DNA from: Candidatus Nitrosotenuis sp.
GTDB lineage: Archaea > Thermoproteota > Nitrososphaeria > Nitrososphaerales > Nitrosopumilaceae
Reading direction: 5' to 3'
NCBI GenBank assembly: GCA_052387615.1
Contig: JBQTIZ010000003.1
Coordinates: 7,817-71,816 of the forward strand
DNA: 64,000 nt
The notes below the pieces were generated by a model, which ran no database searches, was not told the DNA's origin, and saw nothing but the letters and a program-made list of their open reading frames with translations. Position numbers and translations under genes: made by a program. Positions 6,447 to 57,087 of this stretch are shown in pieces (positions within the stretch are counted from its first letter, which is position 1; the number at the start of each line of letters is the position of its first letter).

Positions 6447-6508
6447 TACCAGATATTAGCACAAAATTCCTCATCTGCTATTAATTAATCCCTGTTTGTT
6501 TGCTCCAG

Positions 6509-7926: not shown

Positions 7927-7968
7927 TTCTTTCAATGATATATACTGGTTACTATACAAAGTATTCTG

Positions 7969-8430: not shown

Positions 8431-8454
8431 AAAATTTTTAAAACGAGAGAGAGT

Positions 8455-8763: not shown

Positions 8764-8798
8764 TTTCTATTTGTGCTCCAAAATTTCCATTATTTAAA

Positions 8799-9578: not shown

Positions 9579-9582
9579 TTAG

Positions 9583-10968
9583 CTATCGTTCCTTGTAGTA
9601 TTGATCAATAAACTTGTCTTTGACTTTGGTTAGCTCATTCTTTGGTAATAATGAGACTACCTTCCATTGGAGTCCCAAAGTTTCCTCAATGGTTCTATTT
9701 TCGTCAACGCCTTGGGTCAAAAACTCTTTTTCAAATCCATCTCCTACTTCAAGATATTTCAGATCAACTCCGGTAAGGCCTGCCTTTCCTACAATTCCTG
9801 CAAGTGCTCTTACTTCTTGCGATCTAGAATAAGCATCATAGTTTTGATTAGAAATTTCTTGATGGTCTGCTCTTGTTCTTCCCTCGCCAATTCCGTCCTT
9901 CATGATTCTGGAGAGACTCATCAAAATGTTGACTGGTGGATAGACTCCTTGTCTGAACAAGTCACGCCCAAGTACAATTTGGCCTTCTGTAATGTATCCA
10001 GTAAGATCTGGAATTGGATGAGTGATATCGTCTGATGGCATGGTCAAAATTGGCATCTGAGTTACGCTTCCTTTTTTGTCCCGTAGTCTTCCTGCTCGCT
10101 CATAAATAGTGGAAAGATCAGTGTACAGATATCCTGGATATCCTTTTCTTCCGGGCACTTCTTCTCTTGCTGCACTGATCTCTCTTAGTGCTTCTGCATA
10201 GTTTGTCATATCAGTAAGAATTACCAGTACATGCATGCCAAGATCATATGCCAAGTATTCAGCAGCAGTTAGTGCTACTCGAGGTGTGATGATTCTTTCA
10301 ATTGCAGGATCATCTGCTAGATTCAAAAATAGAACACTTCGCTTTAATGCGCCAGATTCCTCAAGACTTCTTTTGAAATATTCTGCTTCAGAAAATTGCA
10401 CGCCGATTGCTGCAAAAACTACTGCAAACTCATCGGATGTTCCAACCACTGCAGCTTGTCTTGCAATTTGTGCTGCCAAAATGTTGTGCGACATGCCAGA
10501 ACCGGAGAAAATTGGAAGCTTTTGGCCTCTAACTAGGGTTAACATTCCATCAATTACAGAAACACCAGTTTGTATGAAGTCTCTTGGATATTCTCTTTGT
10601 TCTGGATTCATTGGCTCGCCGTTAATATCGATAAATTTTTCAGCGATTGGATCTGGTAATCCATCAATTGGTCTTCCTAGGCCATCAAAGACTCTGCCCA
10701 AGAGTTGTTCTGATACTGGCATTTCCATGACTTTGCCTACAAATTTTGCGCTGGTTCCAGAAATTGAGAGGCCTGTTGTTCCTTCAAAGACTTGAACTAT
10801 TGCTTTTCTGTTTCCTACCTCGAGAACCTTGCCTAGTCTTCTCTGCCCATCAGTCGTCTGAATTTCAACTAGCTCATCAAATGCAACACTTTCTACTCCA
10901 TCAACAATAACAAGTGGTCCTTTGATCTCCGCAATTTTGGAATACTGGACTCCACCTTGTGCACTCAT
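9583..10968 (-). CDS. atpB: A-type ATP synthase subunit B
   Basis: 461-aa non-catalytic alpha/beta-family subunit. 4-nt overlap with atpA. Confidence 0.95.
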
Positions 10969-12737
10969 GCTGTAATCTTGACTCCGGATATCTTTTTGAA
11001 TTCTGAATCAATCGTGCCAGTTAGTGCATCAAGTTTTGCAAGTTCTTCTTCTTTGACTTCCATTCTTGCTTTGAGTAACGTTGCAATTACCGGCATTGCT
11101 CTAATGTCTGCAAGTGATGTACCTTCTCTTAGTGCTGCTTGGCCTTTTCTGTAGAAATCAACTAGTAATGTCAAAAGTTTGAATTGTTTTTGTGGACTGC
11201 AGTAGGTATCAACATCATCAAAAGAATTTTGCTGCAAGATTCCAATTTTGATCATTCTTGCAACTTCCAAGATTAGTTTTTCTTCGTCTGGCAGTGCTTC
11301 AGGTCCCAGCAGTCTGACAATTTCTTTTAGTGTGTCCTCTCTTTGTAAAATTCCATATGCTTCCTGTCTGAGCTCAAACCAGTCCTTTGACACATTGTCT
11401 CCCCACCATTTTCCAATGTCTGCTAGATAGCCAGAATAGCTGTTCATCCAATTAATTGATGGGTAGTGACGAGAGTACGCAAGTTTTGCATCTAGTGCCC
11501 AAAAGGTTTTGATAAATCTCATGGTGTGTGTTGTGACGGGTTCTGTAAAGTCTCCACCTGATGGAGATACTGCACCAATTAGTGTTACAGAGCCATCTCT
11601 GTCTGGTGAGCCTTGTGCTCTAACACGTCCTGCTCTTTCGTAAAATTCTGCCAATCTTGATGCTAGATACGATGGATAGCCTTCTTCTGCTGGCATTTCT
11701 TCTAGTCTTCCGCTCATTTCACGAAGCGCCTCCGCCCATCTTGATGTAGAGTCTGCTACAAGGACTACGTCTTTGCCCATGTCTCGATAATATTCTGCAA
11801 TGGTTACACCGGTGTAGATGCTTGCTTCTCTTGCAGCTACTGGCATGTTACTTGTATTTGCAACAAGAACGGTTCTGTCCATGAGTGGCTTGCCAGTTCT
11901 TGGGTCTTTGAGGTGTGGGAATTCTACTAGTACTTCGGTCATTTCGTTTCCGCGCTCTCCACATCCAATGTATACGACAACCTGAGAGTCTGCCCACTTT
12001 GCGATTTGGTGCAGAGTTACTGTCTTTCCAGTTCCAAATGCTCCAGGGATTGATCCTGTTCCGCCTTTGGCAATTGGGAAAAATGTGTCAATGACTCGTT
12101 GTCCTGTGAGTAATGGAATGGTTGGATCATATCTTGATTTGTATGGTCTTGGCTTTCTTACTGGCCAATAATGATACATCTTGATTGGGATCTTGCTTTC
12201 TGCTGTAGTAGCAAGTTCTGTTTCAAGATCATAAGTGCCTTCACTAACAATTTTTGTAATTTTTCCTCCTGCATGATCTGGTGGAACCATTATACCATGT
12301 TCAATCAAATCGGTTTCCTGGACTGAACCAATAATGCTTCCTGATTGAACTATATCACCAACTTTGACCTTTGGTGTGAATTTGTATTTCTTTGTCATAT
12401 CTACTGGCGTAGTGGTGATTCCTCTGCCAATGAAAGATCCAGATTTTGCTGCTAGGTCTTTTAGCGGTCTTTGAATTCCATCATAAATTTGCCCGATAAT
12501 TCCTGGACCAAGCAAGACACTTAGTGGATTTCCAGTGCCGACCACTGGTTCGCCTGGCTTGAGTCCGCTAGTTGATTCGTAAACTTGGATAAATGCGACA
12601 TCGCCTGTGAGACGAATTACTTCTCCGATGAGTTTTGCATCGCCGACAGCAACCGTTTCGTACATTTTTGCATCAGACATTCCGTCTGCCCTTACTGCCG
12701 GACCGCTAACCCAAACAATTCTACCCTTTGCAACCAT
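10965..12737 (-). CDS. atpA: A-type ATP synthase catalytic subunit A
   Basis: 590 aa with Walker A 'GAFGTGKTV' and the A-subunit-specific non-homologous insert length. Confidence 0.95.
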
Positions 12738-12742
12738 ACCTT

Positions 12743-13336
12743 TTACCTTCCGAATTTTGATGCGATGTCTTTCCTTATTAAAGGCTTCAGGCGTTCAAGT
12801 CTTGCATCAATGGTGTTATCAAATGTCATGGTACCATCCTTTGATTGTACTTTGATTCCCCCAAGACAATCAATCACTTCAGATGAAAGTGTGGCTCCCT
12901 TGAATTTTGAAAGTAATGACTCTACTACTGACTTGTCCTTTGAGTTAGTTTGAATTACAATTTCAGATGTGCCTATAGTGTCAATGGATTCTTGTAGTAA
13001 TGCGGAGATTAATTTTGAATAATCCTTGTTGCGATCAGATTCTTGGATTTTTTTGATCGCTTTTTGGAATACATGCTCTATTGATTCCTCCACAAGCAAA
13101 AGTTGCTTGTTTCTTGATTCCAGATCGGCATTGCCAACGATTTGCTTTTCTAGCTTTTCTGATTCTTTTTTGCCTTCAGCCAATATTTTGTCATATTCTT
13201 GCTCTAAGGCAACTTGTGAGTTTGAAAGTGTGGCTTGTGATGATTTTAGTGCTTCTTTGAGGCTAGATATGGTCTGATCTTGTGTGTTTTGAAGAATTTT
13301 TTCTACAGTTTGCTCTAGTGCAGAATCAATACCCAT
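12743..13336 (-). CDS. atpE: A-type ATP synthase subunit E
   Basis: 197 aa with a long N-terminal coiled coil and a globular C-terminus '[25 protein letters not shown]', typical of subunit E. Confidence 0.75.
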
Positions 13337-13412
13337 TGATCTGGCTCCAATCAGCTAATGAATTTTAATGTTTGGAAAGATTTTAAAATCGTCCCAAAAA
13401 TTGTAAAATGAC

Positions 13413-15506
13413 TTGGTAGTAGCTGAACTAAAACTTGGCAGTATTATCTTACCTAGATCAGAATCGCCGCAAGCGGTTTCTCGTCTTGCGGAATTTGAGT
13501 GGTTTCACAAGATAGAAACAGAAAACGACATAGTTACACCAGAAATAGATGATCTTCTATTGCGTGCACAAAAAACATACCAGTCAGTTGACGATATCAT
13601 AAAGGGCTTGCAGATGCCGCTACAAGTAGGAATCATGGAAATCCTCTTCAAGGGAACCATGATCAAAAAGAAGCAGTACGAGCTTGACGAAATTGAGATA
13701 ATGGTTTCTGACTTGGAAAAAAAAGCGCCTGCCATAATTGACAAGCCAGCAAAACTACTTGAAGAAGAAACGACAACTAAGAGATCTATTGATGAGTATT
13801 CTACACTAAAAGAAACACTAGATGTTGTAAAGAAACTCAATGTGGATCTTAGCGGGTTTGGATTTATGAAATATTTTTACACGAATCTTTTTGTGGTGGA
13901 CTCTAACAAGTTTACAGAGATTACTCGCTCGCTTGAAGGAGTTACAATTTACAAATACGACCTTCAAGCCAAGGACAAAATAGCGTTAATTGTGGTTACG
14001 CTATCTAGTGATTCCGACAAAGTTTTGAAAGTATTTCGCGCATTTGACTCTAATCCATTTGTCATACCACAGGAATTACCTCAGGTGCCAATACAAGCAT
14101 ATTCACTAATAGAATCAAAGCTTTCCGAACTGACAAAAAAACTAGAATTACTTGAAAAAGAAATTGCCAAGACAAAGCAGACACTCCGACGCGATATTTT
14201 GGCATTACATGAAAGTGTATTTGTTGCAAAAGAAGTTCTCGAGATGCTCCGCAAGCCTGGTGGAACAAAATTGTTTGCTGTGATTCAAGGATATATTCCC
14301 AAAAATATGGATTCAAAATTCAAGAGTGTAACAAAACAATGGATGTCTGTTACAGAAGACATTTCGAATCCAAAACTAATCCAAAACAAGCCAACGCTTT
14401 TTGAGAACAAGAGATTTGTGAGAACATTTGAAGTCATTACCCAGAGTCAGGGAATTCCAAAACGTGGTGAAGCAGATCCCACCCCAATGATTGCTCTGAT
14501 GTGGCCAATATTTTATGGATTGATGTTTGCGGATTTAGGTCATGGTCTTTTGCTCATGGGATTTGGATTATTATTCAAGATGAAAGGTCAGGGGAACCTT
14601 TCAAGGTGGGGAATGCTAATTGCAATTTCTGGAGCATCTGCTGCAATAGCAGGAGTTGGAGCAGGTGAAGTATTTGGTTTCCACATAGATCATTTAGCTC
14701 CATTTGAAGAAATACTTGAAGGCCCACTGGCACCAGTATCATGGCTTGTTGGAGTGATTAGTGTAGCAGAACTAACATTTGAGCAAGTAATCACAATACT
14801 CAAGGTTTCACTATTCTTGGGAATCATTCACTTGGTTTGGGCATTTATTCTTCGAATTAAAAAACTCAGAAAGGAAGGCCACTCCCAAATGATAATGACC
14901 GAAGCGATCCCGAACCTTACCCTGTATGGCGGAATTGTTGTAATCATGATGTGCGCAATTGGTTCTAGCTATGATGTGATGAATATGTATTCCAGAGTGC
15001 ACGATGAGGTAGTTCCATGGGTCACAGTATTTTTGGGCGATTGGGCAAGGGTTTGGATAGTTACAAGAATTGCAGGAGTCATTGTCTTGGGCTCAATGGC
15101 AACAATGATGGTAGGAGGAATTTTACACACGAAGCATCACCCAGAAGAAGGAGGTAGTGTTGCAAACATCGTAATGGAAGTTCTCTTGGGAAAATCAGTG
15201 GAATGTCTTGCACATACAATTAGCTATGCACGACTTGGAATCATGCTGCTTGTACATGCTGCACTACTAATGACAGTAAACAATTCGTTTGCATCTATGG
15301 GAGGATGGTCATCACCAGCTGGAATAGCAATGATTGTTGGTGGAAATTTGGGAATCATGATGATTGAAGGATTAATCGTATACATCCAGTCCCTCAGACT
15401 TCACCTGTACGAGTTCTTTACAAAGTGGTATGATGGTGGATCGCAGCCATTCAGGCAAGTTGTACCTGAGTTATTGTACAACCAACTAATCTGGAAGAAA
15501 AAGTAA
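13413..15506 (+). CDS. atpI: A-type ATP synthase subunit I (a)
   Basis: 697 aa with a soluble N-terminal half and a multi-TM C-terminal half carrying the essential Arg in 'ISYARLGIMLL'. Divergent from atpE. Confidence 0.85.
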   Translation: MVVAELKLGSIILPRSESPQAVSRLAEFEWFHKIETENDIVTPEIDDLLLRAQKTYQSVDDIIKGLQMPLQVGIMEILFKGTMIKKKQYELDEIEIMVSDLEKKAPAIIDKPAKLLEEETTTKRSIDEYSTLKETLDVVKKLNVDLSGFGFMKYFYTNLFVVDSNKFTEITRSLEGVTIYKYDLQAKDKIALIVVTLSSDSDKVLKVFRAFDSNPFVIPQELPQVPIQAYSLIESKLSELTKKLELLEKEIAKTKQTLRRDILALHESVFVAKEVLEMLRKPGGTKLFAVIQGYIPKNMDSKFKSVTKQWMSVTEDISNPKLIQNKPTLFENKRFVRTFEVITQSQGIPKRGEADPTPMIALMWPIFYGLMFADLGHGLLLMGFGLLFKMKGQGNLSRWGMLIAISGASAAIAGVGAGEVFGFHIDHLAPFEEILEGPLAPVSWLVGVISVAELTFEQVITILKVSLFLGIIHLVWAFILRIKKLRKEGHSQMIMTEAIPNLTLYGGIVVIMMCAIGSSYDVMNMYSRVHDEVVPWVTVFLGDWARVWIVTRIAGVIVLGSMATMMVGGILHTKHHPEEGGSVANIVMEVLLGKSVECLAHTISYARLGIMLLVHAALLMTVNNSFASMGGWSSPAGIAMIVGGNLGIMMIEGLIVYIQSLRLHLYEFFTKWYDGGSQPFRQVVPELLYNQLIWKKK

Positions 15507-16280
15507 TTACTCTACTGGTAACTCAGTTCTGTTTGACCATTCTCCCCAGGAACCAAGATAGACTCTGATATTCTCAAAGCCAAGTTTTCTTAGGGCTAGA
15601 AATGAGTTTGCTGCTCGGTATGCACCTTGACAATATGTGATGATCTGTGAGTCTTTTGGAATTTTGTATAGCTCTGATAATTGTTCTTTGTCCTTGATTG
15701 TTCCATTCTCCGATATATTGAGTAGATAATCCACGTTGATTGCATTTGGGATGTGGCCACGTCTTGCGCCGCGTATTATATAACCAGAAAATTCTTCTTT
15801 TGATCTTGCATCGATTAGAATTGCTTGGTTTAGATTTTTATTCACAAAATCATAATCTGCTATGATTTGCGGGTTTGGGTTGCCGTCGAAGTTTCTTGGC
15901 GTAAATCCATTTGTTTTTGTTTCGAGTGAGAATCCATCTGACTGCCATTTTTTAATTCCACCATCAAGCATGAAGACGTTTTGGTGTGAGAAGTACATCA
16001 ACATCCAGACTCCACGAGCAGCAAGCATTCCAGAGACATCGTCATAAAATACAACCTTATTTTTCAGAGTAATTCCCACAAAGGAGATAATCTTTTTTGT
16101 TTGTTCATTAAAAACTTCAAGGCCGTGTTTTGAAGTATCAAACCAATGATATGCAAACAAGTCCAAATTTACTGCGCCGGGAATATGCCCCTGTGAATAT
16201 TCCTTGTAAGAACGTGCATCGATTAGAATCAGATTTTGAGTTTGAAGCTCTTTTGCAAGATCTGCAGTCGATATTAGCAT
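15507..16280 (-). CDS. Tandem-rhodanese sulfurtransferase
   Basis: 257 aa with two rhodanese repeats ('LIDARS...GHIPGA' twice) and the active-site loop 'YCQGAYRAA'. Confidence 0.8.
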   Translation of the reverse strand: MLISTADLAKELQTQNLILIDARSYKEYSQGHIPGAVNLDLFAYHWFDTSKHGLEVFNEQTKKIISFVGITLKNKVVFYDDVSGMLAARGVWMLMYFSHQNVFMLDGGIKKWQSDGFSLETKTNGFTPRNFDGNPNPQIIADYDFVNKNLNQAILIDARSKEEFSGYIIRGARRGHIPNAINVDYLLNISENGTIKDKEQLSELYKIPKDSQIITYCQGAYRAANSFLALRKLGFENIRVYLGSWGEWSNRTELPVE

Positions 16281-16350
16281 TGACTCGGATAAATCTAATA
16301 TCCATTAAATCTATTTTGAAACAAAAGGAAAAGAGGGGGTTTTTGAGTTT

Positions 16351-20107: not shown

Positions 20108-20755
20108 ATGATGGGCGATAAGGACTATAAGCAAACTATCAATAGCGCAATAGATATCCTAACAAAAGAAACAGTACCCCAGATTTTAAATCCTAATGAC
20201 AGCAAGGTGGTGTTCTTGCACGAAGTAACAAGATGCATGAGAAGGTCATATTTTGATAGATTTGACGCCATGGATCCAGTAGGCAGAGACTTTGCTGGTA
20301 TTTTGGGCGGTCTGATAAGAAAGCTTCCCTATGGCTCAAAACTTGGCGAATTTGCAGTTGAGGAGATAAAGCTGAATGGCCAAGCAGACATGATAGTAGA
20401 CGACATCGTAATTGTTTTCAAGACAGTAAATGACTTACCTGAGAATCCAGCTGCCGCTGATATTTTGTATTTGAATGGTTGTATGTGGATCTTTAATAAA
20501 ACTGAAGGAGTCATTGTATACCTTACAGGGGATGGAGAAGAGACATCATTTGCGCTAACTCGTGAAAAGAAAATGTTTGAAGAAACGATTCGCCGTGTTC
20601 GAGTATTTTCTAATTTGATTTCGGATAAAAAGACTCCAATCCTGGAACCATCATCAGAGTGTGCAAGCTGCCAGTACTATGAGCGATGCTACATCAAAAA
20701 GCATGATGGAAAACAAATAACCATAACAGAACTGTTTGGTGTTAAAAAGAAGTAA
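20108..20755 (+). CDS. Cas4-like / RecB-family PD-(D/E)XK protein with 4-Cys cluster (stand-alone)
   Basis: N-terminal 'CMRRSYFD' plus C-terminal 'CASCQYYERC' (C-x2-C-x5-C) is the Cas4/DUF83 FeS arrangement. 'GQADMIV' fits motif II, but the expected E-x-K reads 'VFK'. Confidence 0.45.
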   Translation: MMGDKDYKQTINSAIDILTKETVPQILNPNDSKVVFLHEVTRCMRRSYFDRFDAMDPVGRDFAGILGGLIRKLPYGSKLGEFAVEEIKLNGQADMIVDDIVIVFKTVNDLPENPAAADILYLNGCMWIFNKTEGVIVYLTGDGEETSFALTREKKMFEETIRRVRVFSNLISDKKTPILEPSSECASCQYYERCYIKKHDGKQITITELFGVKKK

Positions 20756-26938: not shown

Positions 26939-27645
26939 ATTGTGAGCTCCATTTTTGGTGGTACATCATCGCCTTCAAAGGCGCGTCCGTCCTTTATTGT
27001 GATAATGCGATCAACTTCGCCAAACTGATGTTTGTCATGGGTTACTATGACAAATGTTTGGTTTAGCTTTTTTGCCATTGATTTCATTAATTGTACTGTT
27101 GTTTCTGCGGTAACAGAGTCCAAGTTTCCAGTTGGCTCGTCAGCTAAAACTATTGTTGGCTTGTTAATCAAACCGCGTGCAATTGCCGCCCTTTGTGCTT
27201 GACCACCTGAGACCTTGTTTGCCCGCTTGTGCATTTGGCTTTCTAATCCCACTGCTCTTAGCAATTCAATTGCTTGTTTTTGCGCATTTTGATCTGTTCT
27301 CTGGATATTTCTTGGAAGCAAGACATTTTCTAGCACTGTCAGATCTGCCAACAAATTTGAAAATTGGAAAATGAATCCAAGCTTGGAATTTCTGAATGCT
27401 GATATTTTGTTGTCAGAGAGCTTTGTAGTGTTGGTATCGTCAATGAACACTTGGCCGCTAGTTGGCTTGTCAAGCAGGCCGATCATGTTAAGCAATGTGG
27501 ATTTGCCAGAACCCGAGCTTCCAACAATTAGCAGAAACTCTCCGCGTTTTACAGAAAACGATACGTTGTCTAGTGCTTGGACCTTGGTGTCTCCCTGGCC
27601 AAATACCTTGTTGACATTTTTTAATTCTAGTACAAGATCAGACAT
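26935..27645 (-). CDS. ABC transporter ATP-binding protein (MacB/LolD-like)
   Basis: Walker A 'GSSGSGKST', signature 'VSGGQAQR', Walker B 'IVLADEPT'. Start taken at 'MSDLVLELKN' (27645), overlapping the permease stop by 8 nt. Confidence 0.9.
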   Translation of the reverse strand: MSDLVLELKNVNKVFGQGDTKVQALDNVSFSVKRGEFLLIVGSSGSGKSTLLNMIGLLDKPTSGQVFIDDTNTTKLSDNKISAFRNSKLGFIFQFSNLLADLTVLENVLLPRNIQRTDQNAQKQAIELLRAVGLESQMHKRANKVSGGQAQRAAIARGLINKPTIVLADEPTGNLDSVTAETTVQLMKSMAKKLNQTFVIVTHDKHQFGEVDRIITIKDGRAFEGDDVPPKMELTI

Positions 27646-28825
27646 ATCGCATTGCCTCCACTGGTTGCAGCTTGGTTGCCTTGTATGACGGATAAATTGA
27701 CGCAATTACTGCAAGAGCAAACGCCATGATGGCAGTTTGGATTGTTTTTTCCCAATCATAGCTTACCTCAAGCGGAATGCTTCCTGCAAAAGTCATCTTG
27801 GTTTCTTTTGCGTAAAAGGTATAGCCAAGGCCCATTGCCGTGCCTAATCCCGCGCCTAGGGCTCCAATCATCATGCCCTGCACGATGAAAATTATCAAAA
27901 CATCCTTTCTTTTTGCGCCTATTGCACGCATGACGCCAACTTCTCTGGTTTTGCTAGATACCAGCATCATTTGGATGGTAACTACTGCAAACGCAGACGA
28001 CATCATTCCAAAATAGCCAATCATGTTGATCATTGCAATGCCTGATCGAAATCCACTCAATGCTGCCTCTGCCGATTCCTCTATCGTCTCTGCTTTGAAA
28101 TCATCGTTTGGGAATGTTCTCAAGAAAAACTGCTTTACATCATCTGCTTTTTTTGGATCATTTAGCTTTACTAGAATTTCTCCAGTTTCTCCGTCTCTAT
28201 CTAACATGTCGCGCAACGCGTCAATGTGCATTATTACTTCAGAATCTAGGCCTTGGCCTCCAGGCGAAGTTACAATTCCAGCTACAAGAAAACGCCTAAC
28301 TTGATCTTCTCCACGTCTATCGGTAATTTTTAGCTCAAGACTGTCACCTACTCGTATATTGCCAAGATCATTTACAACTCGAGAACCAACAACAACAGAA
28401 TTTCTTGAAAAGACATACTGACCATCGGTTACTGTTTCGTGTGCGGTTGAGACTCGCGGATCGCGGAATGGATCCACGCCGATAACTGGAATCTTAAAGT
28501 CTTCAATCAGCTTGCCGTTTTTGGTGACATTGATTGATGCGGAAGATTGTACCCTCGGTGTTGCGGCCTCCACGTATGGAATTCGCTCAAACCAGTTTAC
28601 CAAAAAAATATCCGATTTTGTGATAAAGCTTTCCTCATCCGTTACCAGGACATCTCCGAATCTGTAGCTTGATAGATCTCTAACTATGGCATCGTATAGC
28701 CCTTGAAATATTACAAAATTTACGTGAATTACCAATATTCCAATTGACACTGCCAAGACTGCGCCAATGAGTGAGCCCTTTTTGTTTGAGAGCATTCTTT
28801 TTGCCAGCTGGACACGATAATCCAT
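27638..28825 (-). CDS. ABC transporter permease, FtsX/MacB-like
   Basis: 395 aa: N-terminal TM, a large extracytoplasmic domain, then three C-terminal TM segments (FtsX-like). Confidence 0.85.
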   Translation of the reverse strand: MDYRVQLAKRMLSNKKGSLIGAVLAVSIGILVIHVNFVIFQGLYDAIVRDLSSYRFGDVLVTDEESFITKSDIFLVNWFERIPYVEAATPRVQSSASINVTKNGKLIEDFKIPVIGVDPFRDPRVSTAHETVTDGQYVFSRNSVVVGSRVVNDLGNIRVGDSLELKITDRRGEDQVRRFLVAGIVTSPGGQGLDSEVIMHIDALRDMLDRDGETGEILVKLNDPKKADDVKQFFLRTFPNDDFKAETIEESAEAALSGFRSGIAMINMIGYFGMMSSAFAVVTIQMMLVSSKTREVGVMRAIGAKRKDVLIIFIVQGMMIGALGAGLGTAMGLGYTFYAKETKMTFAGSIPLEVSYDWEKTIQTAIMAFALAVIASIYPSYKATKLQPVEAMRYV

Positions 28826-28924: not shown

Positions 28925-29845
28925 GTGTCTAACTGTATCAAATTGGACAAATCAGATGTAGAAATTCTGCATGCATTGCTTGATAATTGTAGAGAATCAG
29001 ATAGACAGATAGGCACGAAAATTGGAATTTCTGGCGCCGCAGTAAAAACAAGAATTGAAAAAATGATACAAAATCAGATGATTGAGAGTTTTGCACTCAA
29101 GATAGAGCCGTCTGTTTTGGGCTACAATCTTTTGTATGTTGTAGTGACTGGCCAAAACATTGATGAAATTCTGAAACAAGTCGAATTGGTTGGCGATCCA
29201 TTTCTAGTAGTTCCATGTGTTGGTGGAATCACTGTTTGTGGGATTGTGGTAAAAGAAAATGTTTCACAGAAAATAGAGCTAGCAAAAAACCTGATGAAAA
29301 ACGTTAGACTGTTGTCAATATTTGAGGCAGAAAATCCAGGGATTCGCTCAGATCTTACCAAGACAGACATCGATATAATTGGCCAGCTACTCAGGAATCC
29401 ACGAATAAAAATAGAAGACTTGGCAAAAAAGGCAAGACTGTCTACAAAAACCATTGCCAGATCACTAAAAAAATTACAAAATGATGAGGCAATTCAGTTT
29501 ACGCTAATTTATGATCCAGCAAAATTTGGCCAATACATTCCATTTGCTGTTTTGGTGTGGGTTGATGAAGATCTAAATGAGGCGGTGAAATTGCTCAGAA
29601 AAGAATTTTCAGAGTCATTTTTGCAAAAGCCGTTTTTGGCAAAAAACCAAGTCGTATTGTTTTTGCATAGCAATAATATTTTTGAGCTTGACAATATTAC
29701 GCAGAGAATACGAAATGTTAAAGGCGTTGTATCAGCTGATTTGTTCATTCCAAAAAAGATCAATTTTCCGCAAAAATGGGTCACAAACGCAATCAAGGCA
29801 GCTAAAACTTCGGAAAAGCTGCACCTAGCATACCAGACAAATTAA
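28925..29845 (+). CDS. Tandem (duplicated) Lrp/AsnC-family transcriptional regulator
   Basis: Two consecutive HTH-plus-effector modules, beginning at 'LDKSDVEILHALLDN...' and 'LTKTDIDIIGQLLRN...'; 306 aa. Confidence 0.7.
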   Translation: MSNCIKLDKSDVEILHALLDNCRESDRQIGTKIGISGAAVKTRIEKMIQNQMIESFALKIEPSVLGYNLLYVVVTGQNIDEILKQVELVGDPFLVVPCVGGITVCGIVVKENVSQKIELAKNLMKNVRLLSIFEAENPGIRSDLTKTDIDIIGQLLRNPRIKIEDLAKKARLSTKTIARSLKKLQNDEAIQFTLIYDPAKFGQYIPFAVLVWVDEDLNEAVKLLRKEFSESFLQKPFLAKNQVVLFLHSNNIFELDNITQRIRNVKGVVSADLFIPKKINFPQKWVTNAIKAAKTSEKLHLAYQTN

Positions 29846-35124: not shown

Positions 35125-36702
35125 TTACTGCTCATTGCAAATTGTCTGGGTTTGCTCTCGTAGGAATTGAGTTAGATAGTATGCGCCACCAGCTCCTTTG
35201 CCTGAAATGCCAGAATTTTTCCATCCAACAAAGGGTTGGGCCTGAACCATTGCACCAGTAGTAGCAGATTGAGCACGATTTGCATATGTTACGCCTGCCT
35301 CTATTTTTGAGAAAAACTCGTCAATTTCGTTTTTGTTCTGGCTGAATATTCCTGCAGTAAGGCCATATTCTGAATCGTTTGCCTGCTTTATTGCGTCATC
35401 AAATTTTTCAAATTCCTGTACGCACAAAAACGGCAAGAACAATTCCTCTTTTACCAATTTATGATTCATTGGCAAATTGCCAACTATTGTGGGCCTGACA
35501 TAGTAACCGTTTTGGTATAATCCATCTTTTAGAATCTCGCCGCCAAAAATTATCTTGCCATCCCTTTTTGCAAGCTCCACTGCTTTTTCGAATTTTTTCT
35601 TGGCGGAATCATTTATGATTGGGCCCAAGTATGTGTCTTTTTCCCAGGGTAAACCAATTTTGAGATTCTGTGTTTTTGAGACTAATTTTTCCATGAATTT
35701 TGACGCAATCTGTTTTTGTACATAAACTCTAGAGCATGCACTGCATTTTTGCCCGCCATATCCGAATGCTGCACGCAAAACACCATCTGTTGCCTTGTCC
35801 AGATCTGCGGATTCTGTTACGACTACGGGATTTTTGCCGCCCATCTCTGAGATGAATGGTTTTGGAGAGTTTTTGGTAAATGTTCTAAATCCTGCTAGCC
35901 CAACTTCTTTGGAACCAGTAAATGCAATTCCCGATACATGCGGGTTTTCAACTATTGCTTGCCCGACAACACTTCCCTGACCGGTTAGAAAATTGATTGC
36001 GCCATCTGGTACCTTTTTGTAAATAGCGTCAATAAATCGAAATGCGGAAAGCGGTGTGTCGCTTGCTGGCTTTAGAACTACAGTGTTTGCAGTGATTAGA
36101 GCACCGCTACTCATTCCAATTGCAATAGCAGAGGGGAAATTGAATGGTGATATTATTCCCCAAACTCCATATGGTTTTAGGACCGACTGGGTTTTTTCGT
36201 TTTGATTTGCATTTTTTGTTGGCCTGACAAATCCTTGGTTTGATTCAAGCTGGTCTGCGTAAAATCGTAGAAAATCAATTGTTTCATCGATTTCGCCCAT
36301 TGCCTCAAGCCTGGTTTTGCCATTTTCTAGACTTAGAGTAGCTGCTAGTGAGAATTTTTCTGCAGAGAATTGGTTTGCTATATCACGAAATATTTTGGCT
36401 CTATTCTGGTATGGACTGGTGCTCCATTCTGAAAATGCATTTTTGGCCGATTCAATTGCTTGATTGGTTTGCTCCTTTGATGCAAATGGGAACTTTGCTA
36501 GTATGATTCTAGTATCTGATGGTGATCTTACTTCAAATAATTTCTCCGAATGAACTTGTTTTCCATCTATGATTAATGGATAAGTTTTGCCAAATTCTGA
36601 TTTTAGCGAGTCTAGGGCAGAGTCAAATTTTTTGTGAAACTCATCAGTTGTGTTGTTTTTCACTGCATTTATCCAAGTGTTCTCGTTTTCAATCAAAGGC
36701 AA
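35125..36702 (-). CDS. Aldehyde dehydrogenase, 1-pyrroline-5-carboxylate dehydrogenase-like
   Basis: 'FTGSKEVG', catalytic Glu 'EMGGKNP' and catalytic Cys 'GQKCSACSR'. The 525-aa RocA-like N-terminal extension is present. Confidence 0.85.
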   Translation of the reverse strand: MPLIENENTWINAVKNNTTDEFHKKFDSALDSLKSEFGKTYPLIIDGKQVHSEKLFEVRSPSDTRIILAKFPFASKEQTNQAIESAKNAFSEWSTSPYQNRAKIFRDIANQFSAEKFSLAATLSLENGKTRLEAMGEIDETIDFLRFYADQLESNQGFVRPTKNANQNEKTQSVLKPYGVWGIISPFNFPSAIAIGMSSGALITANTVVLKPASDTPLSAFRFIDAIYKKVPDGAINFLTGQGSVVGQAIVENPHVSGIAFTGSKEVGLAGFRTFTKNSPKPFISEMGGKNPVVVTESADLDKATDGVLRAAFGYGGQKCSACSRVYVQKQIASKFMEKLVSKTQNLKIGLPWEKDTYLGPIINDSAKKKFEKAVELAKRDGKIIFGGEILKDGLYQNGYYVRPTIVGNLPMNHKLVKEELFLPFLCVQEFEKFDDAIKQANDSEYGLTAGIFSQNKNEIDEFFSKIEAGVTYANRAQSATTGAMVQAQPFVGWKNSGISGKGAGGAYYLTQFLREQTQTICNEQ

Positions 36703-36740
36703 ATGATATACTGGATCAGTGAATAAAATGATTTAGTCGT

Positions 36741-37284
36741 GTTTCAATCCTTGTTATGTTGGATTAGTCTTTCAGTGGGTGTTAATGCCTTCGCTTTTCT
36801 GATTGTGGCTAACATGTTTCAATCCTTGTTATGTTGGATTAGTCTTTCAGTGGTTGCAATGTTGCTCCTCCCGTTTGAGTCACGGTGTTTCAATCCTTGT
36901 TATGTTGGATTAGTCTTTCAGTGAGTAGGAAATTCATGTTTACATTCTGGACATTTAGGTTTCAATCCTTGTTATGTTGGATTAGTCTTTCAGTGCTCTG
37001 CATGTGTGAATTTCATTACTTTGCTGACGTGTTTCAATCCTTGTTATGTTGGATTAGTATTTCAGTGTTATCAGGCATCAACACCATTCCTTAATTCTCT
37101 TGTTTCAATCCTTGTTATGTTGGATTAGTCTTTCAGTGTGAACCAAAAAACACAAACACAAATGGGTGACGGCCTGTTTCAATCCTTGTTATGTTGGATT
37201 AGTCTTTCAGTGCTTGCTCTGTTCTTCGTTGATTCCTTTTTGCAGATGTTTCAATCCTTGTTATGTTGGATTAGTCTTTCAGTG
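36741..37284 (-). CRISPR. CRISPR array, 8 repeats x 37 nt, 7 spacers (38, 34, 35, 35, 34, 37, 35 nt)
   Basis: Plus-strand repeat is GTTTCAATCCTTGTTATGTTGGATTAGTCTTTCAGTG. Copies lie at 36741-36777, 36816-36852, 36887-36923, 36959-36995, 37031-37067 (C>A at 37059), 37102-37138, 37176-37212 and 37248-37284. All spacers are unique. Minus-strand sense is inferred because that strand ends in ...GGATTGAAAC, and because only the 37285 side has room for a leader. Confidence 0.9.
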
Positions 37285-37455
37285 TTTTAATGAGGCGTTG
37301 TCCTGAACATAATTCTAAAGTATTTGGAAAAATCTAACAAGATTCTAGTAGACGACGATGGTTCCATAGTTTGGATTTATGCTAGTCCAAAGGCAAAGAA
37401 GAGTTGGGAAAGAGCAACTAGATTATAGTTTGAGTCTCCAAGATAATTCAGAATC
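37285..37455 (-). promoter_or_regulatory. Putative CRISPR leader (171 bp non-coding)
   Basis: Only 38 bp separate the other end of the array from the ALDH start codon, so this side is the plausible leader. No promoter element was identified with confidence. Confidence 0.3.
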
Positions 37456-38235
37456 ATGATAAAATCTCCTTTGCGTTATCCAGGCGGAAAATCACGCGCA
37501 GTCAAGATCATATCAAAATACATTCCAAAAAATACGACTGAGATCTGCTCGCCATTTTTTGGTGGAGGATCTTTTGAATTAGCTTGTGCGCAGAACGGTA
37601 TTCGGGTGTACGGTTACGACAGTTTTGCCCCACTGGTTGATTTTTGGCAGATTTTACTGTCCAGTCCCAACAAGCTTGCAAACAGTGTGGAAAAATACCA
37701 TCCACTAAAAAAAGAAAAATTCTATAAGTTGCAAAAAATTCAGCTAGAATCAAAAAGTAAGCTAGAACGTGTTACGGTATTTTTTGTTCTGAACAGAACT
37801 TCGTTTTCTGGTTCCACATTATCTGGCGGAATGGCAACAGGCGGACCGCACAACAATCCAAGATTTACAAAATCATCAATTGAGAGACTACGAGAATTCA
37901 AAATCAAAAACTTGTCAGTCAAGCTGGATGATTTCAAAAAATCAATTCCCAGGCACAAAAACACGTTATTGTATTTGGATCCACCATATCTGATTCAAAG
38001 CAAATTGTATGGCAAAAAGGGTGACTTGCACAAAAACTTTGATCATATTGGTTTGGCAAAAATTCTCAAAAAACGCAATTCGTGGATTTTATCATATAAT
38101 AATTCTAAAGAAATTCACGAGTTATACTCGGATTACACAGTTTTGTATCCAAACTGGAAATATGGCATGTCAAATGACAAATCATCAAGAGAAGTCTTGA
38201 TTCTAAGTCATGACATCGCTAAAAAATCAAATTAA
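37456..38235 (+). CDS. dam: DNA adenine methyltransferase, D12 class (Dam family)
   Basis: N-terminal 'LRYPGGKSR', SAM motif 'SPFFGGGSFEL' and catalytic 'YLDPPY'; 259 aa. Confidence 0.9.
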   Translation: MIKSPLRYPGGKSRAVKIISKYIPKNTTEICSPFFGGGSFELACAQNGIRVYGYDSFAPLVDFWQILLSSPNKLANSVEKYHPLKKEKFYKLQKIQLESKSKLERVTVFFVLNRTSFSGSTLSGGMATGGPHNNPRFTKSSIERLREFKIKNLSVKLDDFKKSIPRHKNTLLYLDPPYLIQSKLYGKKGDLHKNFDHIGLAKILKKRNSWILSYNNSKEIHELYSDYTVLYPNWKYGMSNDKSSREVLILSHDIAKKSN

Positions 38236-38360
38236 AGAAGCTCTGCTTCTGGTGCACAGTGTTTGTGAACCCAGCTTCCTGATTCGTTTTTTGCAATTTC
38301 CTTGCCTGGTGCTATTTTATCCCCACATGAAACACATGAGGTAGCAAATTTTGCTTTCAT
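38232..38360 (-). CDS. 42-aa Zn-ribbon-like ORF
   Basis: Hand translation gives 'MKAKFATSCVSCGDKIAPGKEIAKNESGSWVHKHCAPEAELL' (CxxC ... HxHC). Its 3' end overlaps the dam stop by 4 nt. It is in the same frame as the tnpB remnant, 27 codons beyond its TAG. Confidence 0.3.
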   Translation of the reverse strand: MKAKFATSCVSCGDKIAPGKEIAKNESGSWVHKHCAPEAELL

Positions 38361-39005: not shown

Positions 39006-40910
39006 TTGACAACTTTATTGCAATTTGATGCCCTTGGACGCAGAATGCGATCCAGTTATCCAGAAATCGATCTAAAAAGGCCCCGAGAACCAATCTCGCT
39101 AATTGAAGCATTGGAGTTAGTAGGGCAATTTGCAGGAAAAGAACCTACTCCCAAGCAATACGAGGTCATTAAAAAAATCCAGCACGCAATAGAATCAGGA
39201 TACAAAAAAATCCTCTTATCAGCACCTACTGGAACCGGAAAAAGCTGGATTGCAATTGCATTGGCATTATACTTTAGATCAGCTACAATTCTGACATCAA
39301 CTATTTTACTGCAAGACCAGTACAGAAACGAGTTTGGGTTTTTCAACACAGTACGCGGAAAAAAGCGATTCCTATGCGAGCAGACAAACCGGATTTTTGA
39401 TTGTACCAATGGTTATTGCAACGATTGTACATTCAAGCCACAGCCAGAACTGTATAATATTCTAAAGAAGGGAACCATTGCTGAGACCATAACAAGCCAG
39501 GACATGCCTAGAAAGTGTCCATACTATGACCAAATCGAAATTGGCAAAAAGGCAAGCTTTGTTGCATATTCTTACGCCTCATACCTATCGCATCTTTTGT
39601 CTGGCGAGGAAATGCCGCAAAGAAAGCTGCTAGTGTGCGATGAGGCACATGAGCTTGATGAAGAGCTGGCAAACCAGCTTGCAACCAATTTGTCTGGATT
39701 TTATGGGGAGCTTCTTGGAATCGAGATGCCAAAGTTTTCAGTAAACTCTAATCTTGATTCCATAAAACAATATGTCAATGCATTCTCTGAGGCTTTTAGA
39801 AAACGCGAATCTGTAATAAAGCAATGCGCGGAACATACGCTATTCTTGCAATCAGAAGAACACATCAAAAAGCATGTTCATTGCATGAAACATGGAATCA
39901 AACTACAATCAAGCTGCTCTGACTGCAATAAAATCCGAGAATACATCAGAACAAAAGAATTTCTAAAATGCAAGGATCATGTAGATTGCAAGTTTGACCA
40001 CAGATATATCAATCACTTTGTGCTAAATGATCTCAAAAATTATACTACAAAAATGAAGATTCTGCAGAAAGGATTGGAATCAGCTGATCAGAACTACATC
40101 ATTACAGATATTCAATCCAAATCGCAAGATGAAAGAAGAGGCCACAACTTTGATGAGGTTACCATAAAACCATGGCACATTCACTGGTTTATGGAAGAAA
40201 TGAGTACAAGCTTTGATGTATCATTATACATGTCTGCAACCATCAACTTGGAATTATTCTGCAAAGAAACCGGATTCAAAAACGACGAAGTCTATTTCAT
40301 CAATGAGGATTCCAACATTCCGCTGGAAAATCGCAAGGTAATATTTTTGAAAACAGAATATGTCGAGGCAGCCTCAGATGTCGTCCTGCCTGACAAAATC
40401 ATATCACAGATTGAGGCTATTTTGAAAATTAGGGCAAATCAAAGAGGAATCATACTGCTCACTAGTTATTCACAGCTTGACTATGTTTTAGAGAAAATCT
40501 CGCCTGAGCTCAAGCCTAGGCTCTTTCCCTTGGAGCGTGGCCAAGACAAGGGAGAGGCAATAGACATTCACAAAAACACACCAAATTCAGTCTTGATTTC
40601 TCCAGGATTGGAATCCGGAGTCAATCTGCCAGATGATGACAGTAGGTTCCAGATAATTGTCAAGGCTCCCTACTATCCAACAGTTGACGATCTGAGAATG
40701 AAAAAGATCTACGATTCCGAACATGATCACAGAAGATACTATCTAAAATCTGCATTCAGATTATTACAGATGGCCGGTCGAAGCATTCGACATGTAAAAG
40801 ACAGCGCAATGACCTATGTTTTAGATGCAAAGGCAGAGCGCATGATATACCATCAGAGAAATGATCTTCCAAAATGGTTCATGGATGCATGTGAAGGAAT
40901 CGCAAAATAA
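39006..40910 (+). CDS. SF2 DNA helicase of the XPD/Rad3/DinG family with FeS-cluster cysteines and an extra Cys/His-rich insert
   Basis: Walker A 'APTGTGKS' (39222-39245), 'DEAH' (39639-39650), 'SAT', and motif VI 'QMAGRSIRH'. Cys124/133/138/141/171 lie between motifs I and II, as in XPD FeS domains. The Cys/His cluster covers residues 274-332. TTG start; alternative ATG at 39045. Confidence 0.85.
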   Translation: MTTLLQFDALGRRMRSSYPEIDLKRPREPISLIEALELVGQFAGKEPTPKQYEVIKKIQHAIESGYKKILLSAPTGTGKSWIAIALALYFRSATILTSTILLQDQYRNEFGFFNTVRGKKRFLCEQTNRIFDCTNGYCNDCTFKPQPELYNILKKGTIAETITSQDMPRKCPYYDQIEIGKKASFVAYSYASYLSHLLSGEEMPQRKLLVCDEAHELDEELANQLATNLSGFYGELLGIEMPKFSVNSNLDSIKQYVNAFSEAFRKRESVIKQCAEHTLFLQSEEHIKKHVHCMKHGIKLQSSCSDCNKIREYIRTKEFLKCKDHVDCKFDHRYINHFVLNDLKNYTTKMKILQKGLESADQNYIITDIQSKSQDERRGHNFDEVTIKPWHIHWFMEEMSTSFDVSLYMSATINLELFCKETGFKNDEVYFINEDSNIPLENRKVIFLKTEYVEAASDVVLPDKIISQIEAILKIRANQRGIILLTSYSQLDYVLEKISPELKPRLFPLERGQDKGEAIDIHKNTPNSVLISPGLESGVNLPDDDSRFQIIVKAPYYPTVDDLRMKKIYDSEHDHRRYYLKSAFRLLQMAGRSIRHVKDSAMTYVLDAKAERMIYHQRNDLPKWFMDACEGIAK

Positions 40911-57063: not shown

Positions 57064-57087
57064 AAGCATAAAAAGTCAGAGCGAGAC

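What the first reader, a model, noticed from the sequence alone, without database searches (positions are those of the whole stretch)
36741..37284. Eight-repeat CRISPR array with no cas gene anywhere in the 64-kb window
Seen directly: a 37-nt repeat (GTTTCAATCCTTGTTATGTTGGATTAGTCTTTCAGTG) occurs 8 times, separated by 7 unique spacers of 34-38 nt. Seven copies are identical and one carries a single C>A change at 37059.

Orientation: the reverse strand ends in GGATTGAAAC, the classic 3' handle-generating end of many archaeal type I/III repeats, and has a 5-bp AATCC/GGATT stem. That argues for minus-strand transcription. If so, the array would be read from the 37285 side straight toward the ALDH gene, whose start codon is only 38 bp from the last repeat.

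No Cas1, Cas2, Cas6 or effector genes lie within 36 kb upstream or 26 kb downstream. To my knowledge CRISPR loci are uncommon in Nitrosopumilaceae-type genomes. The reverse complement of spacer 3 reads ...KCPECKHEFPT (a CPxC zinc ribbon), so at least that spacer looks derived from a coding protospacer.
Basis: partly seen in the sequence, partly recalled or inferred. Interest (0 to 1): 0.75.

Follow-up and report, generated by a model that had tools for sequence, protein, structure and literature searches.

The report
Isolated type I-B CRISPR array in Nitrosotenuis
This is a genuine but ordinary CRISPR array: a short piece of a type I-B immune memory (leader plus eight repeats) inserted between two housekeeping genes of an ammonia-oxidising archaeon, far from any cas gene.

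Summary
Eight 37-nt repeats (seven identical, one C>A at 37059) and seven unique 34-38-nt spacers lie at 36741-37284. No cas gene is present in the 64 kb.

The repeat belongs to the Cas6b/type I-B family. It differs by 3 of 37 nt from the repeat next to complete I-B operons in Ca. Nitrosotenuis uzonensis and another Nitrosotenuis lineage. It differs by 2-4 nt from thaumarchaeal and Bathyarchaeia arrays.

Eight relatives have ALDH next to the MTase (or, in N. uzonensis, the helicase) with no array. The window therefore carries a derived 718-bp insertion: 3 nt, the array, and a 171-bp AT-rich leader-like block on the 37285 side. This supports minus-strand transcription.

The nearby DinG-like helicase is a conserved core gene, not a cas gene. 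No protospacers or self-targets were found.

Whether the same genome encodes I-B Cas proteins elsewhere could not be determined. No Cas6b from this MAG appears in the protein collection, but MAGs are incomplete. A trans-served satellite array and a true orphan are about equally likely.

Arrays without neighbouring cas genes make up about a third of all arrays. This is a new member of a known kind and of modest interest.

The parts
36741..37284 (-). CRISPR array: 8 repeats of 37 nt and 7 spacers. In the transcribed sense the repeat is CACTGAAAGACTAATCCAACATAACAAGGATTGAAAC.
   Evidence: exact copies, 0 expected by chance. (Rfam CRISPR-DR7, minus strand). (homologous repeats beside type I-B operons, co-oriented with the ...GGATTGAAAC strand).
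37285..37455 (-). 171-bp leader-like block that was inserted together with the array. GC is 35% overall and 28% in the 60 nt next to the first repeat. TATA-like TTTAGA lies 35 nt and ATAAAT 96 nt upstream of repeat 1 (promoter role is inferred). The block must also now carry the MTase promoter on the + strand.
   Evidence: Absent from all 8 relatives, which have ALDH next to the MTase or helicase. No homologue in any fetched locus. Composition and motifs.
36738..36740 (-). 3 nt (ACG in the transcribed sense) between the last repeat and the conserved flank. Probably the stump of a further spacer, marking where a longer array was cut (inference).
   Evidence: Junction alignment with L001, L076, L079, L083 and L084.
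37031..37067 (-). Variant repeat, fourth from the leader. C>A at 37059 corresponds to position 9 of the transcribed repeat. It lies outside the stem-loop and the 8-nt handle.
   Evidence: It falls below the Rfam gathering score.
37213..37247 (-). Spacer 7, leader-proximal and so presumably the newest: ATCTGCAAAAAGGAATCAACGAAGAACAGAGCAAG.
   Evidence: No match in IMG/VR, phages, plasmids, the window or the loci.
37139..37175 (-). Spacer 6: AGGCCGTCACCCATTTGTGTTTGTGTTTTTTGGTTCA.
37068..37101 (-). Spacer 5: AAGAGAATTAAGGAATGGTGTTGATGCCTGATAA.
36996..37030 (-). Spacer 4: ACGTCAGCAAAGTAATGAAATTCACACATGCAGAG.
36924..36958 (-). Spacer 3: CTAAATGTCCAGAATGTAAACATGAATTTCCTACT. Frame 3 reads KCPECKHEFPT.
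36853..36886 (-). Spacer 2: ACCGTGACTCAAACGGGAGGAGCAACATTGCAAC.
36778..36815 (-). Spacer 1, trailer-proximal and so presumably the oldest: ATGTTAGCCACAATCAGAAAAGCGAAGGCATTAACACC.
35125..36702 (-). Context only: aldehyde dehydrogenase, downstream of the array on the same strand. Its conserved upstream AATAAAA / TTTTATT motif (36703-36737) was kept intact by the insertion.
   Evidence: Pfam Aldedh 1.9e-135. Junction alignment. Trailer sequence.
37456..38235 (+). Context only: D12-class N6-adenine DNA methyltransferase. In relatives its start codon lies 40-52 bp from ALDH.
   Evidence: Pfam MethyltransfD12 4.3e-32..
39006..40910 (+). Context only, NOT part of the system: a DinG/XPD-like SF2 helicase that hits PADLOC typeIV_DinG. 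It is a conserved syntenic core gene in array-less relatives.
57064..57087 (.). Context only: the 24-bp gap between PCNA and aspartokinase. It is the empty counterpart of the site where a type I-B operon plus array is inserted in L088-L091.

Best explanation
The feature is a genuine CRISPR array of the Cas6b/type I-B repeat family with its own leader, physically separated from any cas gene.

Shown: the repeat is a 3-nt variant of the repeat that sits beside complete cas8b-cas7-cas5-cas3-cas6b-cas1-cas2-cas4 operons in other Nitrosotenuis genomes. In those loci, the leader lies between cas4 and the array, and the array is read in the ...GGATTGAAAC sense. In the window, the array plus a 171-bp AT-rich block forms a 718-bp insertion, absent from eight relatives, placed exactly between the conserved ALDH upstream motif and the MTase start codon.

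Inferred origin: a leader-plus-array fragment cut out of a longer array (3-nt spacer stump at the trailer end) was captured by illegitimate recombination.

Inferred mechanism: a promoter in the leader drives a minus-strand pre-crRNA. A type I-B Cas6b encoded elsewhere in the genome binds the AAUCC/GGAUU hairpin and cuts 8 nt before the repeat's 3' end, giving crRNAs with an AUUGAAAC 5' handle. These load into I-B Cascade, which recruits Cas3 against matching DNA. On this reading it is a 'distant' satellite array served in trans.
For: Array statistics and the Rfam DR7 hit.

Hairpin and handle.

Homologous repeats next to full I-B operons: L016, N. uzonensis L074 and Nitrosotenuis L086/87 at 3/37 mismatches, and Nitrosopumilus L070 at 6/37. 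The cas operon and the ...GAAAC strand are co-oriented in all of them.

Empty-site alleles in L001, L076-79, L083, L084 and L003.

Repeat integrity is 7/8. Spacer lengths of 34-38 nt are typical of type I-B arrays (my own knowledge), and spacer GC is close to the host's.

The genus carries mobile I-B cassettes at several chromosomal sites.

[quoted passage not shown] An isolated I-F array has been shown to be active and horizontally acquired (PMC13142298).
Against: No Cas6b attributable to this MAG (protein accessions MGQ06...) is among the best 120 hits of two Cas6b searches, nor in the 20 NCBI-containing clusters that were opened.

One known I-B insertion site, PCNA|aspartokinase, is empty in the window.

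The exact 37-mer, with its CAC 5' end, was not found next to cas genes anywhere. It is absent from GTDB representative genomes, and no locus sharing the 25-nt core in GTDB genomes, JGI metagenomes or IMG/VR has the same tail.

The CAC variant breaks a GUC...GAC mini-hairpin kept in all relatives.

The leader is not alignable with the cas-adjacent Nitrosotenuis leaders, and the leader-repeat junction motif (GAAAAA-N5-6) is not kept.

No protospacer was found.

Eight repeats is the average size of orphan arrays.
Confidence: 0.5

Rival explanations
1. True orphan array. It is the same object, a type I-B leader plus array fragment, but the genome has no compatible cas genes. The array is a recently acquired or left-over piece of immune memory. 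It is transcribed at most as an unprocessed RNA and currently gives no immunity. It could be re-activated if one of the mobile I-B cassettes of the genus enters the genome.
For: No Cas6b from this MAG in the protein collection. No cas gene in 64 kb. The PCNA|aspartokinase I-B site is empty. The repeat variant and leader are unlike any cas-adjacent array sampled. Array size equals the orphan average, and 12% of arrays are orphans. Some Nitrosotenuis genomes have no CRISPR at all (SAT1, PMC4814877). A solitary repeat of the same family on a thaumarchaeal contig shows that such remnants exist.
Against: Only one SNP in 296 nt of repeat sequence, so there has been no visible decay, although a very recent insertion would look the same. 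MAGs often miss cas contigs; L069 and L075 show that these contigs are short and break at arrays. Most typed isolated arrays have a matching cas locus in trans.
Confidence: 0.4
2. Non-immune, regulatory role. The inserted block acts mainly as a promoter or read-through element that changes expression of ALDH (same strand, 38 bp downstream) or of the MTase (divergent), and the CRISPR nature is incidental.
For: The array is co-directional with ALDH. Only a TTTT run, inside the ALDH TATA-like motif, separates them. The insertion displaced the MTase from its former 40-52-bp shared promoter region.
Against: The conserved ALDH upstream motif is retained intact, so ALDH probably keeps its own promoter. 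Nothing suggests selection for such an effect, since it is a single occurrence among nine genomes. No spacer matches the window.
Confidence: 0.05
3. A minimal helicase-linked system. The array works with the neighbouring DinG-like helicase (39006-40910), as in type IV-A CRISPR-Cas.
For: PADLOC typeIV_DinG model PDLC01439 hits the helicase at 7.6e-52 over nearly its full length, 1.7 kb from the array. A fragment hitting the same model lies upstream of cas8b in L016.
Against: The helicase is syntenic and 72-94% identical in relatives that have no array. The Csf4-specific models hit only weakly (4e-15 on the C-terminal domain, and 5e-5). No Csf1, Csf2, Csf3 or Csf5 is present in the window. The repeat is a Cas6b/I-B repeat. 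The L016 fragment shows no tblastn similarity to the helicase region of the window; its only match at E<=1 (E = 0.45) lies inside the MTase gene. Homologues are annotated with generic names such as 'Rad3-related helicase / DinG'.
Confidence: 0.02
4. Assembly or binning artefact: the array was mis-joined into a Nitrosotenuis contig.
For: Repeats are a common cause of metagenome mis-assembly. The exact repeat was seen nowhere else.
Against: Both flanks continue the same conserved synteny at the same nucleotide positions as in eight relatives. A chimera would have to leave and re-enter the chromosome at one point. The repeat family is native to the genus.
Confidence: 0.03

Closest known systems
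Type I-B CRISPR arrays of Ca. Nitrosotenuis uzonensis and other Nitrosotenuis-clade genomes (L074, L086/L087)
   Same: A 37-nt repeat identical at 34/37 positions, including the AAUCC/GGAUU stem and the AUUGAAAC handle. Spacing is similar (71-75 nt, start to start). The orientation logic is the same, and the genus is the same.
   Different: Those arrays are 22-51 repeats long and directly follow cas4 of a full I-B operon, with a 79-nt leader. The window's array has 8 repeats, no cas neighbour, an unrelated 171-bp leader, and a CAC rather than GTC 5' end in every repeat.
'Distant' and 'orphan' CRISPR arrays as defined by Bernheim et al. 2020 (PMC7145637) and Zhang & Ye 2017 (PMC5294841)
   Same: An array more than 20 kb from any cas gene. 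Its repeat can be assigned to a subtype. It is short; orphan arrays average 8 repeats.
   Different: Those surveys cover bacterial complete genomes in the main. Here the genome is an incomplete archaeal MAG, so the distant-versus-orphan call cannot be made.
Horizontally acquired isolated type I-F array CRISPR3 of Pseudomonas aeruginosa ATCC 10145 (PMC13142298, preprint)
   Same: A leader-plus-array module located far from cas. It is present in only some strains and is interpreted as acquired by recombination.
   Different: There the leader is nearly identical to that of a cas-adjacent array, MGEs flank the array, and activity was shown experimentally. Here the leader has no known relative, the flanks are housekeeping genes, and activity is untested.
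Stand-alone CRISPR arrays on thaumarchaeal integrative-conjugative elements (NCAV2-E1, NitIsl-E1; Krupovic et al. 2019, PMC6563490)
   Same: Thaumarchaeal arrays without adjacent cas genes. In the paper's account, their repeats match a host I-B array, so they can be served in trans.
   Different: Those arrays have 69-96 spacers and sit inside ICEs. The window's array is small and lies in a conserved chromosomal intergenic spacer, with no integrase, att site or MGE genes nearby.

Membership tests
CRISPR array (generic) | Three or more near-identical direct repeats of about 23-50 nt at regular spacing | tested here: met
   8 copies of 37 nt, 7 identical, spacing 71-75 nt, 0 expected by chance.
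CRISPR array (generic) | Unique, similar-length spacers (not a tandem or protein-coding repeat) | tested here: met
   7 different spacers of 34-38 nt. ORFs across the array are only repeat-encoded artefacts.
CRISPR array (generic) | Repeat belongs to a repeat family that is demonstrably cas-associated | tested here: met
   Rfam CRISPR-DR7 at gathering score. Repeats 2-7 nt different lie next to complete cas operons.
CRISPR array (generic) | AT-rich leader with promoter on one side | tested here: inconclusive
   A 171-bp block with 35% GC (28% in the proximal 60 nt) and TATA-like motifs. It was co-inserted with the array. It has no homology to known leaders, and no transcript data are available.
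CRISPR array (generic) | Transcription and processing into crRNAs | not testable with these tools
   Needs small-RNA-seq or Northern blots.
Type I-B CRISPR-Cas locus (complete system) | cas8b, cas7, cas5, cas3 and cas6b effector genes in the locus | tested here: not met
   None in the 64 kb by PADLOC on 71 ORFs or by tblastn with N. uzonensis and L016 Cas proteins (best E = 0.047).
Type I-B CRISPR-Cas locus (complete system) | cas1-cas2-cas4 adaptation module in the locus | tested here: not met
   No Cas1 or Cas2. The only Cas4-family hit is a sub-threshold solo protein 16 kb away, among ATP-synthase genes (Pfam 21.9 bits against a cutoff of 22.7).
Type I-B CRISPR-Cas locus (complete system) | Repeat with a Cas6b-type hairpin and an 8-nt AUUGAAAC/G handle | tested here: met
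   The 3' 25 nt are identical to those of arrays beside Cas6b genes.
Distant (trans-served) array | A compatible cas cluster elsewhere in the same genome | tested here: inconclusive
   The rest of the MAG is not retrievable. No MGQ06... Cas6b appears among the top hits or in the opened clusters. MAG completeness is unknown.
Type IV-A CRISPR-Cas | csf1, csf2, csf3 and csf5 genes plus a Csf4 (CasDinG) helicase | tested here: not met
   No Csf1, 2, 3 or 5. The helicase matches the Csf4-specific models only weakly and is a syntenic core gene in array-less genomes.
MGE-borne stand-alone array (ICE, provirus or plasmid) | Array lies inside an integrated element (integrase, att sites, MGE genes, atypical composition) | tested here: not met
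   The flanks are CoA-biosynthesis genes, ALDH, MTase, helicase and GNAT, in conserved synteny. There is no tRNA in the window and no composition shift.

The most novel reading that the evidence does not exclude
The genome truly lacks cas genes, and the 718-bp leader-plus-array fragment was acquired on its own by horizontal transfer. That would be a transfer of immune memory without the machinery. The memory would be kept intact in a housekeeping intergenic spacer and would become usable whenever one of the type I-B cassettes enters the genome; these cassettes demonstrably occupy different chromosomal sites in Nitrosotenuis-clade genomes. This would be an archaeal example of arrays and cas modules circulating independently as a form of pan-immunity.
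Probability: 0.15. Interest if true: 0.5.

Novelty: new member of a known kind. Interest (0 to 1): 0.27.

Why it matters
It adds a clean, nucleotide-resolved example of a CRISPR leader-plus-array module moving on its own into a non-mobile chromosomal site. Empty-site alleles in eight relatives support this. The host belongs to the ammonia-oxidising archaea, an environmentally important group whose virus defence is poorly known. It also shows that type I-B cassettes with one shared repeat family are mobile within Nitrosotenuis and its relatives. For the general biology of CRISPR it adds nothing new in kind, because isolated arrays are frequent and well described.

Tried and rejected
1. Type IV-A / DinG idea. 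The helicase at 39006-40910 hit PADLOC typeIV_DinG at 7.6e-52. I rejected the link. The gene is syntenic in eight array-less relatives. The Csf4-specific models are weak. No csf genes are present. There is no PDB sequence match at all. The model is probably a generic Rad3/DinG profile; this is an inference from the generic names given to homologues.

2. Retrieving the source contig or MAG. Exact look-ups of the helicase (634-aa and 621-aa forms) found no record. The exact 37-mer is absent from GTDB representative genomes.

3. Tracing a Cas6b of the same MAG through NCBI accession ranges. None was found.

4. Protospacer hunts. The seed-proximal 24-mers of all seven spacers gave 0 hits against IMG/VR. 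Concatenated spacers against GenBank phages and PLSDB plasmids, in sensitive blastn mode, gave no match. Against the window and the 91 fetched loci, only chance-level 12-14-nt matches appeared. This included all the AOA arrays, so no spacers are shared. Spacers of the other arrays matched the window only over 14-15 nt, also at chance level.

5. Leader homology. The 171-bp block has no significant match to any fetched locus and is not alignable with the N. uzonensis or Nitrosopumilus leaders. There is no cas4 remnant in any frame.

6. Weak PADLOC hits to Cas4, Csa3, CARF and CasR. They resolve to a sub-threshold solo Cas4-like protein (20108-20755), a generic winged-helix stretch (28925-29845) and an ABC-permease domain (27638-28825).

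7. Target-site duplication at the insertion. None is visible.

Full report
**Observation.** The sequence at 36741-37284 holds eight copies of the 37-mer GTTTCAATCCTTGTTATGTTGGATTAGTCTTTCAGTG. Seven are exact, and the copy at 37031-37067 has C>A at 37059. None is expected by chance in shuffled sequence. Start-to-start spacing is 71-75 nt. The seven intervening spacers (38, 34, 35, 35, 34, 37 and 35 nt) are all different. Rfam's CRISPR-DR7 model reaches its gathering score on the seven exact copies, on the minus strand. That includes the 38-bp gap to the ALDH ORF and the KCPECKHEFPT reading of spacer 3.

**Organism and surroundings.** The helicase encoded at 39006-40910 is 100% identical to an NCBI protein from a Candidatus Nitrosotenuis sp. 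MAG (MGQ0605413.1, on a 78-kb contig). The window is ordinary chromosome. It carries chemotaxis genes, A-type ATP synthase, an ammonium transporter, CoA biosynthesis genes, ALDH, HSP20 (by synteny with L003), CDC48 (by synteny with L003 and its AAA-ATPase PADLOC hits) and PCNA (by synteny with L088). It has no tRNA and no compositional island.

**No cas genes in the window.** All PADLOC models were run against 71 ORFs. At E<=1e-4 the complete list contains no Cas1, 2, 3, 5, 6, 7, 8 or 10. The weak hits resolve as follows:
- A sub-threshold solo Cas4-like nuclease lies among ATP-synthase genes, 16 kb from the array.
- A generic winged-helix stretch accounts for the Csa3, CARF and CasR hits.
- An ABC-permease domain accounts for the CARF_LolE hit.

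tblastn with 16 type I-B Cas proteins from N. uzonensis and contig L016 finds nothing better than E = 0.047. So there are no pseudogene remnants either.

**What kind of repeat it is.** The 25-nt core of the repeat (handle plus stem-loop) occurs in arrays of 7 genome loci, 56 metagenome loci and 2 IMG/VR loci. The genome loci are from Bathyarchaeia, Methanocella and a Melioribacteraceae bacterium. The closest variants differ by 2-4 nt.
- In L016, such an array directly follows a full cas8b1-cas7-cas5-cas3-cas6-cas1-cas4 operon.
- The Cas6b of that operon has homologues in ammonia-oxidising archaea.
- In Ca. N. uzonensis (L074) and another Nitrosotenuis lineage (L086/L087), a complete I-B operon is followed by arrays of 38 and 22-51 repeats. 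Their repeat, GTCTGAAAGACTAATCCAACAAAACAAGGATTGAAAC, is 34/37 identical to the window's CACTGAAAGACTAATCCAACATAACAAGGATTGAAAC.
- A Nitrosopumilus locus (L070) is 31/37 identical.

The array is therefore a type I-B-family array of the kind native to this genus. Its RNA folds into the UAAUCC/GGAUUG hairpin followed by UGAAAC. This fits Cas6b cleavage that leaves an 8-nt AUUGAAAC handle (mechanism from established knowledge of type I-B; not tested here).

**Orientation.** Four lines agree on minus-strand transcription:
- The Rfam match is on the minus strand.
- The ...GGATTGAAAC end is on the minus strand.
- In every cas-linked relative, the operon, the leader (between cas4 and the array) and the ...GAAAC sense are co-directional.
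- The window has only 3 nt between the conserved flank and the repeat at 36741. On the other side it has a 171-bp novel AT-rich block (35% GC, 28% next to the repeat, with TATA-like motifs 35 and 96 nt upstream).

**The array is a derived insertion.** Seven relatives have ALDH and the D12 methyltransferase 40-52 bp apart with no array (L001, L076-L079, L083, L084). Their helicases are 85-94% identical to the window's. N. uzonensis (L003) lacks both the array and the methyltransferase. Junction alignment shows that the window equals these loci plus 718 bp: CGT, the 544-bp array and the 171-bp block. The insertion lies exactly between the conserved ...AATAAAAYGATTTAG(T) motif and the MTase ATG, with no target-site duplication. 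The 3-nt stump at the trailer end suggests a fragment cut from a longer array (inference). The block has no homologue in any fetched locus and no cas4 remnant. Because both flanks resume the same synteny at one point, an assembly chimera is unlikely.

**The DinG lead.** The helicase 1.7 kb away hits PADLOC typeIV_DinG at 7.6e-52. However:
- It is a syntenic core gene in all array-less relatives.
- The Csf4-specific models are weak, and no csf genes exist.
- Homologues carry generic Rad3/DinG names.

I reject any functional link. The protein is nevertheless unusual in having no sequence match to any solved structure.

The MAG could not be retrieved, and the exact 37-mer is absent from GTDB representatives. 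Two Cas6b searches listed Nitrosotenuis proteins from other assemblies (MEM..., MFM..., MFY..., and N. uzonensis) but none with an MGQ06... accession. Opening 20 NCBI-containing clusters did not change that. In L088-L091, a I-B operon is inserted between PCNA and aspartokinase. The same site in the window (57064-57087) is empty. On the other hand, cas contigs in Nitrosotenuis MAGs are short and break at arrays (L069 is 8.4 kb, L075 is 5.4 kb), so they are easily lost. Combining the published base rates (distant 23% versus orphan 12% of arrays; 75% of distant arrays match the cas subtype in trans) with this negative evidence, I rate the trans-served satellite and the true orphan as about equally likely (0.5 versus 0.4).

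**Targets.** No protospacer was found in IMG/VR (24-nt seed-proximal exact scans), in GenBank phages or in PLSDB plasmids. There is no self-target in the window and no spacer shared with any fetched array. Spacer GC is 31-53%, close to the host's 39.5%. The lack of hits is uninformative given how poorly thaumarchaeal viruses are sampled, a point also made in PMC6563490.

**Peculiarities that remain.**
- Every repeat starts with CAC instead of the GTC found in all relatives. This breaks a small GUC...GAC hairpin. Because all eight copies share it, the donor array already had it. No such donor was found among the GTDB, JGI or IMG/VR arrays that share the 25-nt core.
- The leader-repeat junction motif seen in relatives (GAAAAA plus 5-6 nt) is not kept.

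Both points could mean reduced competence for new spacer integration (inference).

**Comparison and verdict.** The object works like, and is best filed as, an isolated type I-B CRISPR array. It is not a complete CRISPR-Cas locus, not a type IV system, and not an MGE-borne array of the kind described on thaumarchaeal ICEs (PMC6563490). Isolated arrays are common (PMC7145637, PMC5294841), and horizontal acquisition of isolated arrays has been reported (PMC13142298). Novelty: a new member of a known kind. Interest is modest, at 0.27. Its value lies in the clean empty-site evidence for movement of a leader-plus-array module, and in documenting a shared, mobile I-B repeat family in Nitrosotenuis.

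Noticed in passing
window 39006-40910 (+): A 634-aa DinG/XPD-like SF2 helicase with Cys/His-rich inserts, conserved and syntenic across Nitrosotenuis. It has no sequence match to any PDB chain at E<=0.01, yet hits PADLOC 'typeIV_DinG' at 7.6e-52. It is a divergent, uncharacterised helicase family.
   Followed up: partly
window 20108-20755 (+): A solo Cas4-like nuclease (N-terminal Cys plus C-terminal CxxCx5C). It is sub-threshold in Pfam (21.9 bits against a cutoff of 22.7) and scores 6e-9 in PADLOC. It sits next to A-type ATP-synthase genes, 16 kb from the array.
   Followed up: partly
window 37456-38235 (+) and 38232-38360 (-): The D12 N6-adenine methyltransferase has no obvious restriction partner. 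It is present in most relatives but absent in N. uzonensis, so the ALDH-helicase spacer is a recurrent insertion spot. The 42-aa zinc-ribbon ORF next to it is conserved.
   Followed up: partly
window 57064-57087; L088-L091 about 4400-13300; L074; L086: Type I-B cassettes of ammonia-oxidising archaea sit at three or more different chromosomal sites: beside Hjc/RFC/MCM in L074, beside HerA-Mre11-Rad50 in L086, and between PCNA and aspartokinase in L088-L091. The PCNA|aspartokinase site is empty in the window. This implies the cassette is mobile.
   Followed up: partly
L063 9750-9786: A thaumarchaeal contig (it encodes a eukaryote-type topoisomerase IB) carries one solitary repeat only 2 nt different from the window's. 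It lies downstream of a segment containing an integrase and an HNH-HIT gene, and no second repeat follows within 290 nt.
   Followed up: partly
L016 69-416: A contig-edge fragment directly upstream of cas8b hits the same PADLOC DinG model (6e-20) as the window's helicase. It shows no tblastn similarity to the helicase region of the window.
   Followed up: partly
L005/L009, L007, L004/L006, L067/L068: The identical 25-nt repeat core (AATCCAACATAACAAGGATTGAAAC) occurs in arrays of a Melioribacteraceae bacterium, Methanocella, Bathyarchaeia and two IMG/VR 'viral' contigs. The 5' thirds of the repeats differ. This points to cross-domain spread of one Cas6b/repeat lineage.
   Followed up: no
L085 versus L086, about 12487-16290: This is the same Nitrosotenuis I-B locus from different assemblies. 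L086 has a 51-repeat array after cas4, whereas in L085 the next gene follows cas4 after about 170 bp. Either the array collapsed in assembly or there is real array loss.
   Followed up: no
window 28925-29845 (+): A 306-aa protein whose residues about 105-191 match the C-terminal winged-helix part of the Csa3, CasR and CARF3 models (3.8e-9). No CARF domain is evident. It is probably an unrelated transcription regulator.
   Followed up: partly
window, ORFs not located: PADLOC hits to mad3 (1.9e-28), PDC-M51B (4.8e-11), mad2 (3.5e-9), dGTPase (9.5e-9), PDC-S07 (1.3e-8), SduA, AriA and ATPase-Toprim come from window proteins that I did not identify. They are probably generic domain hits.
   Followed up: no
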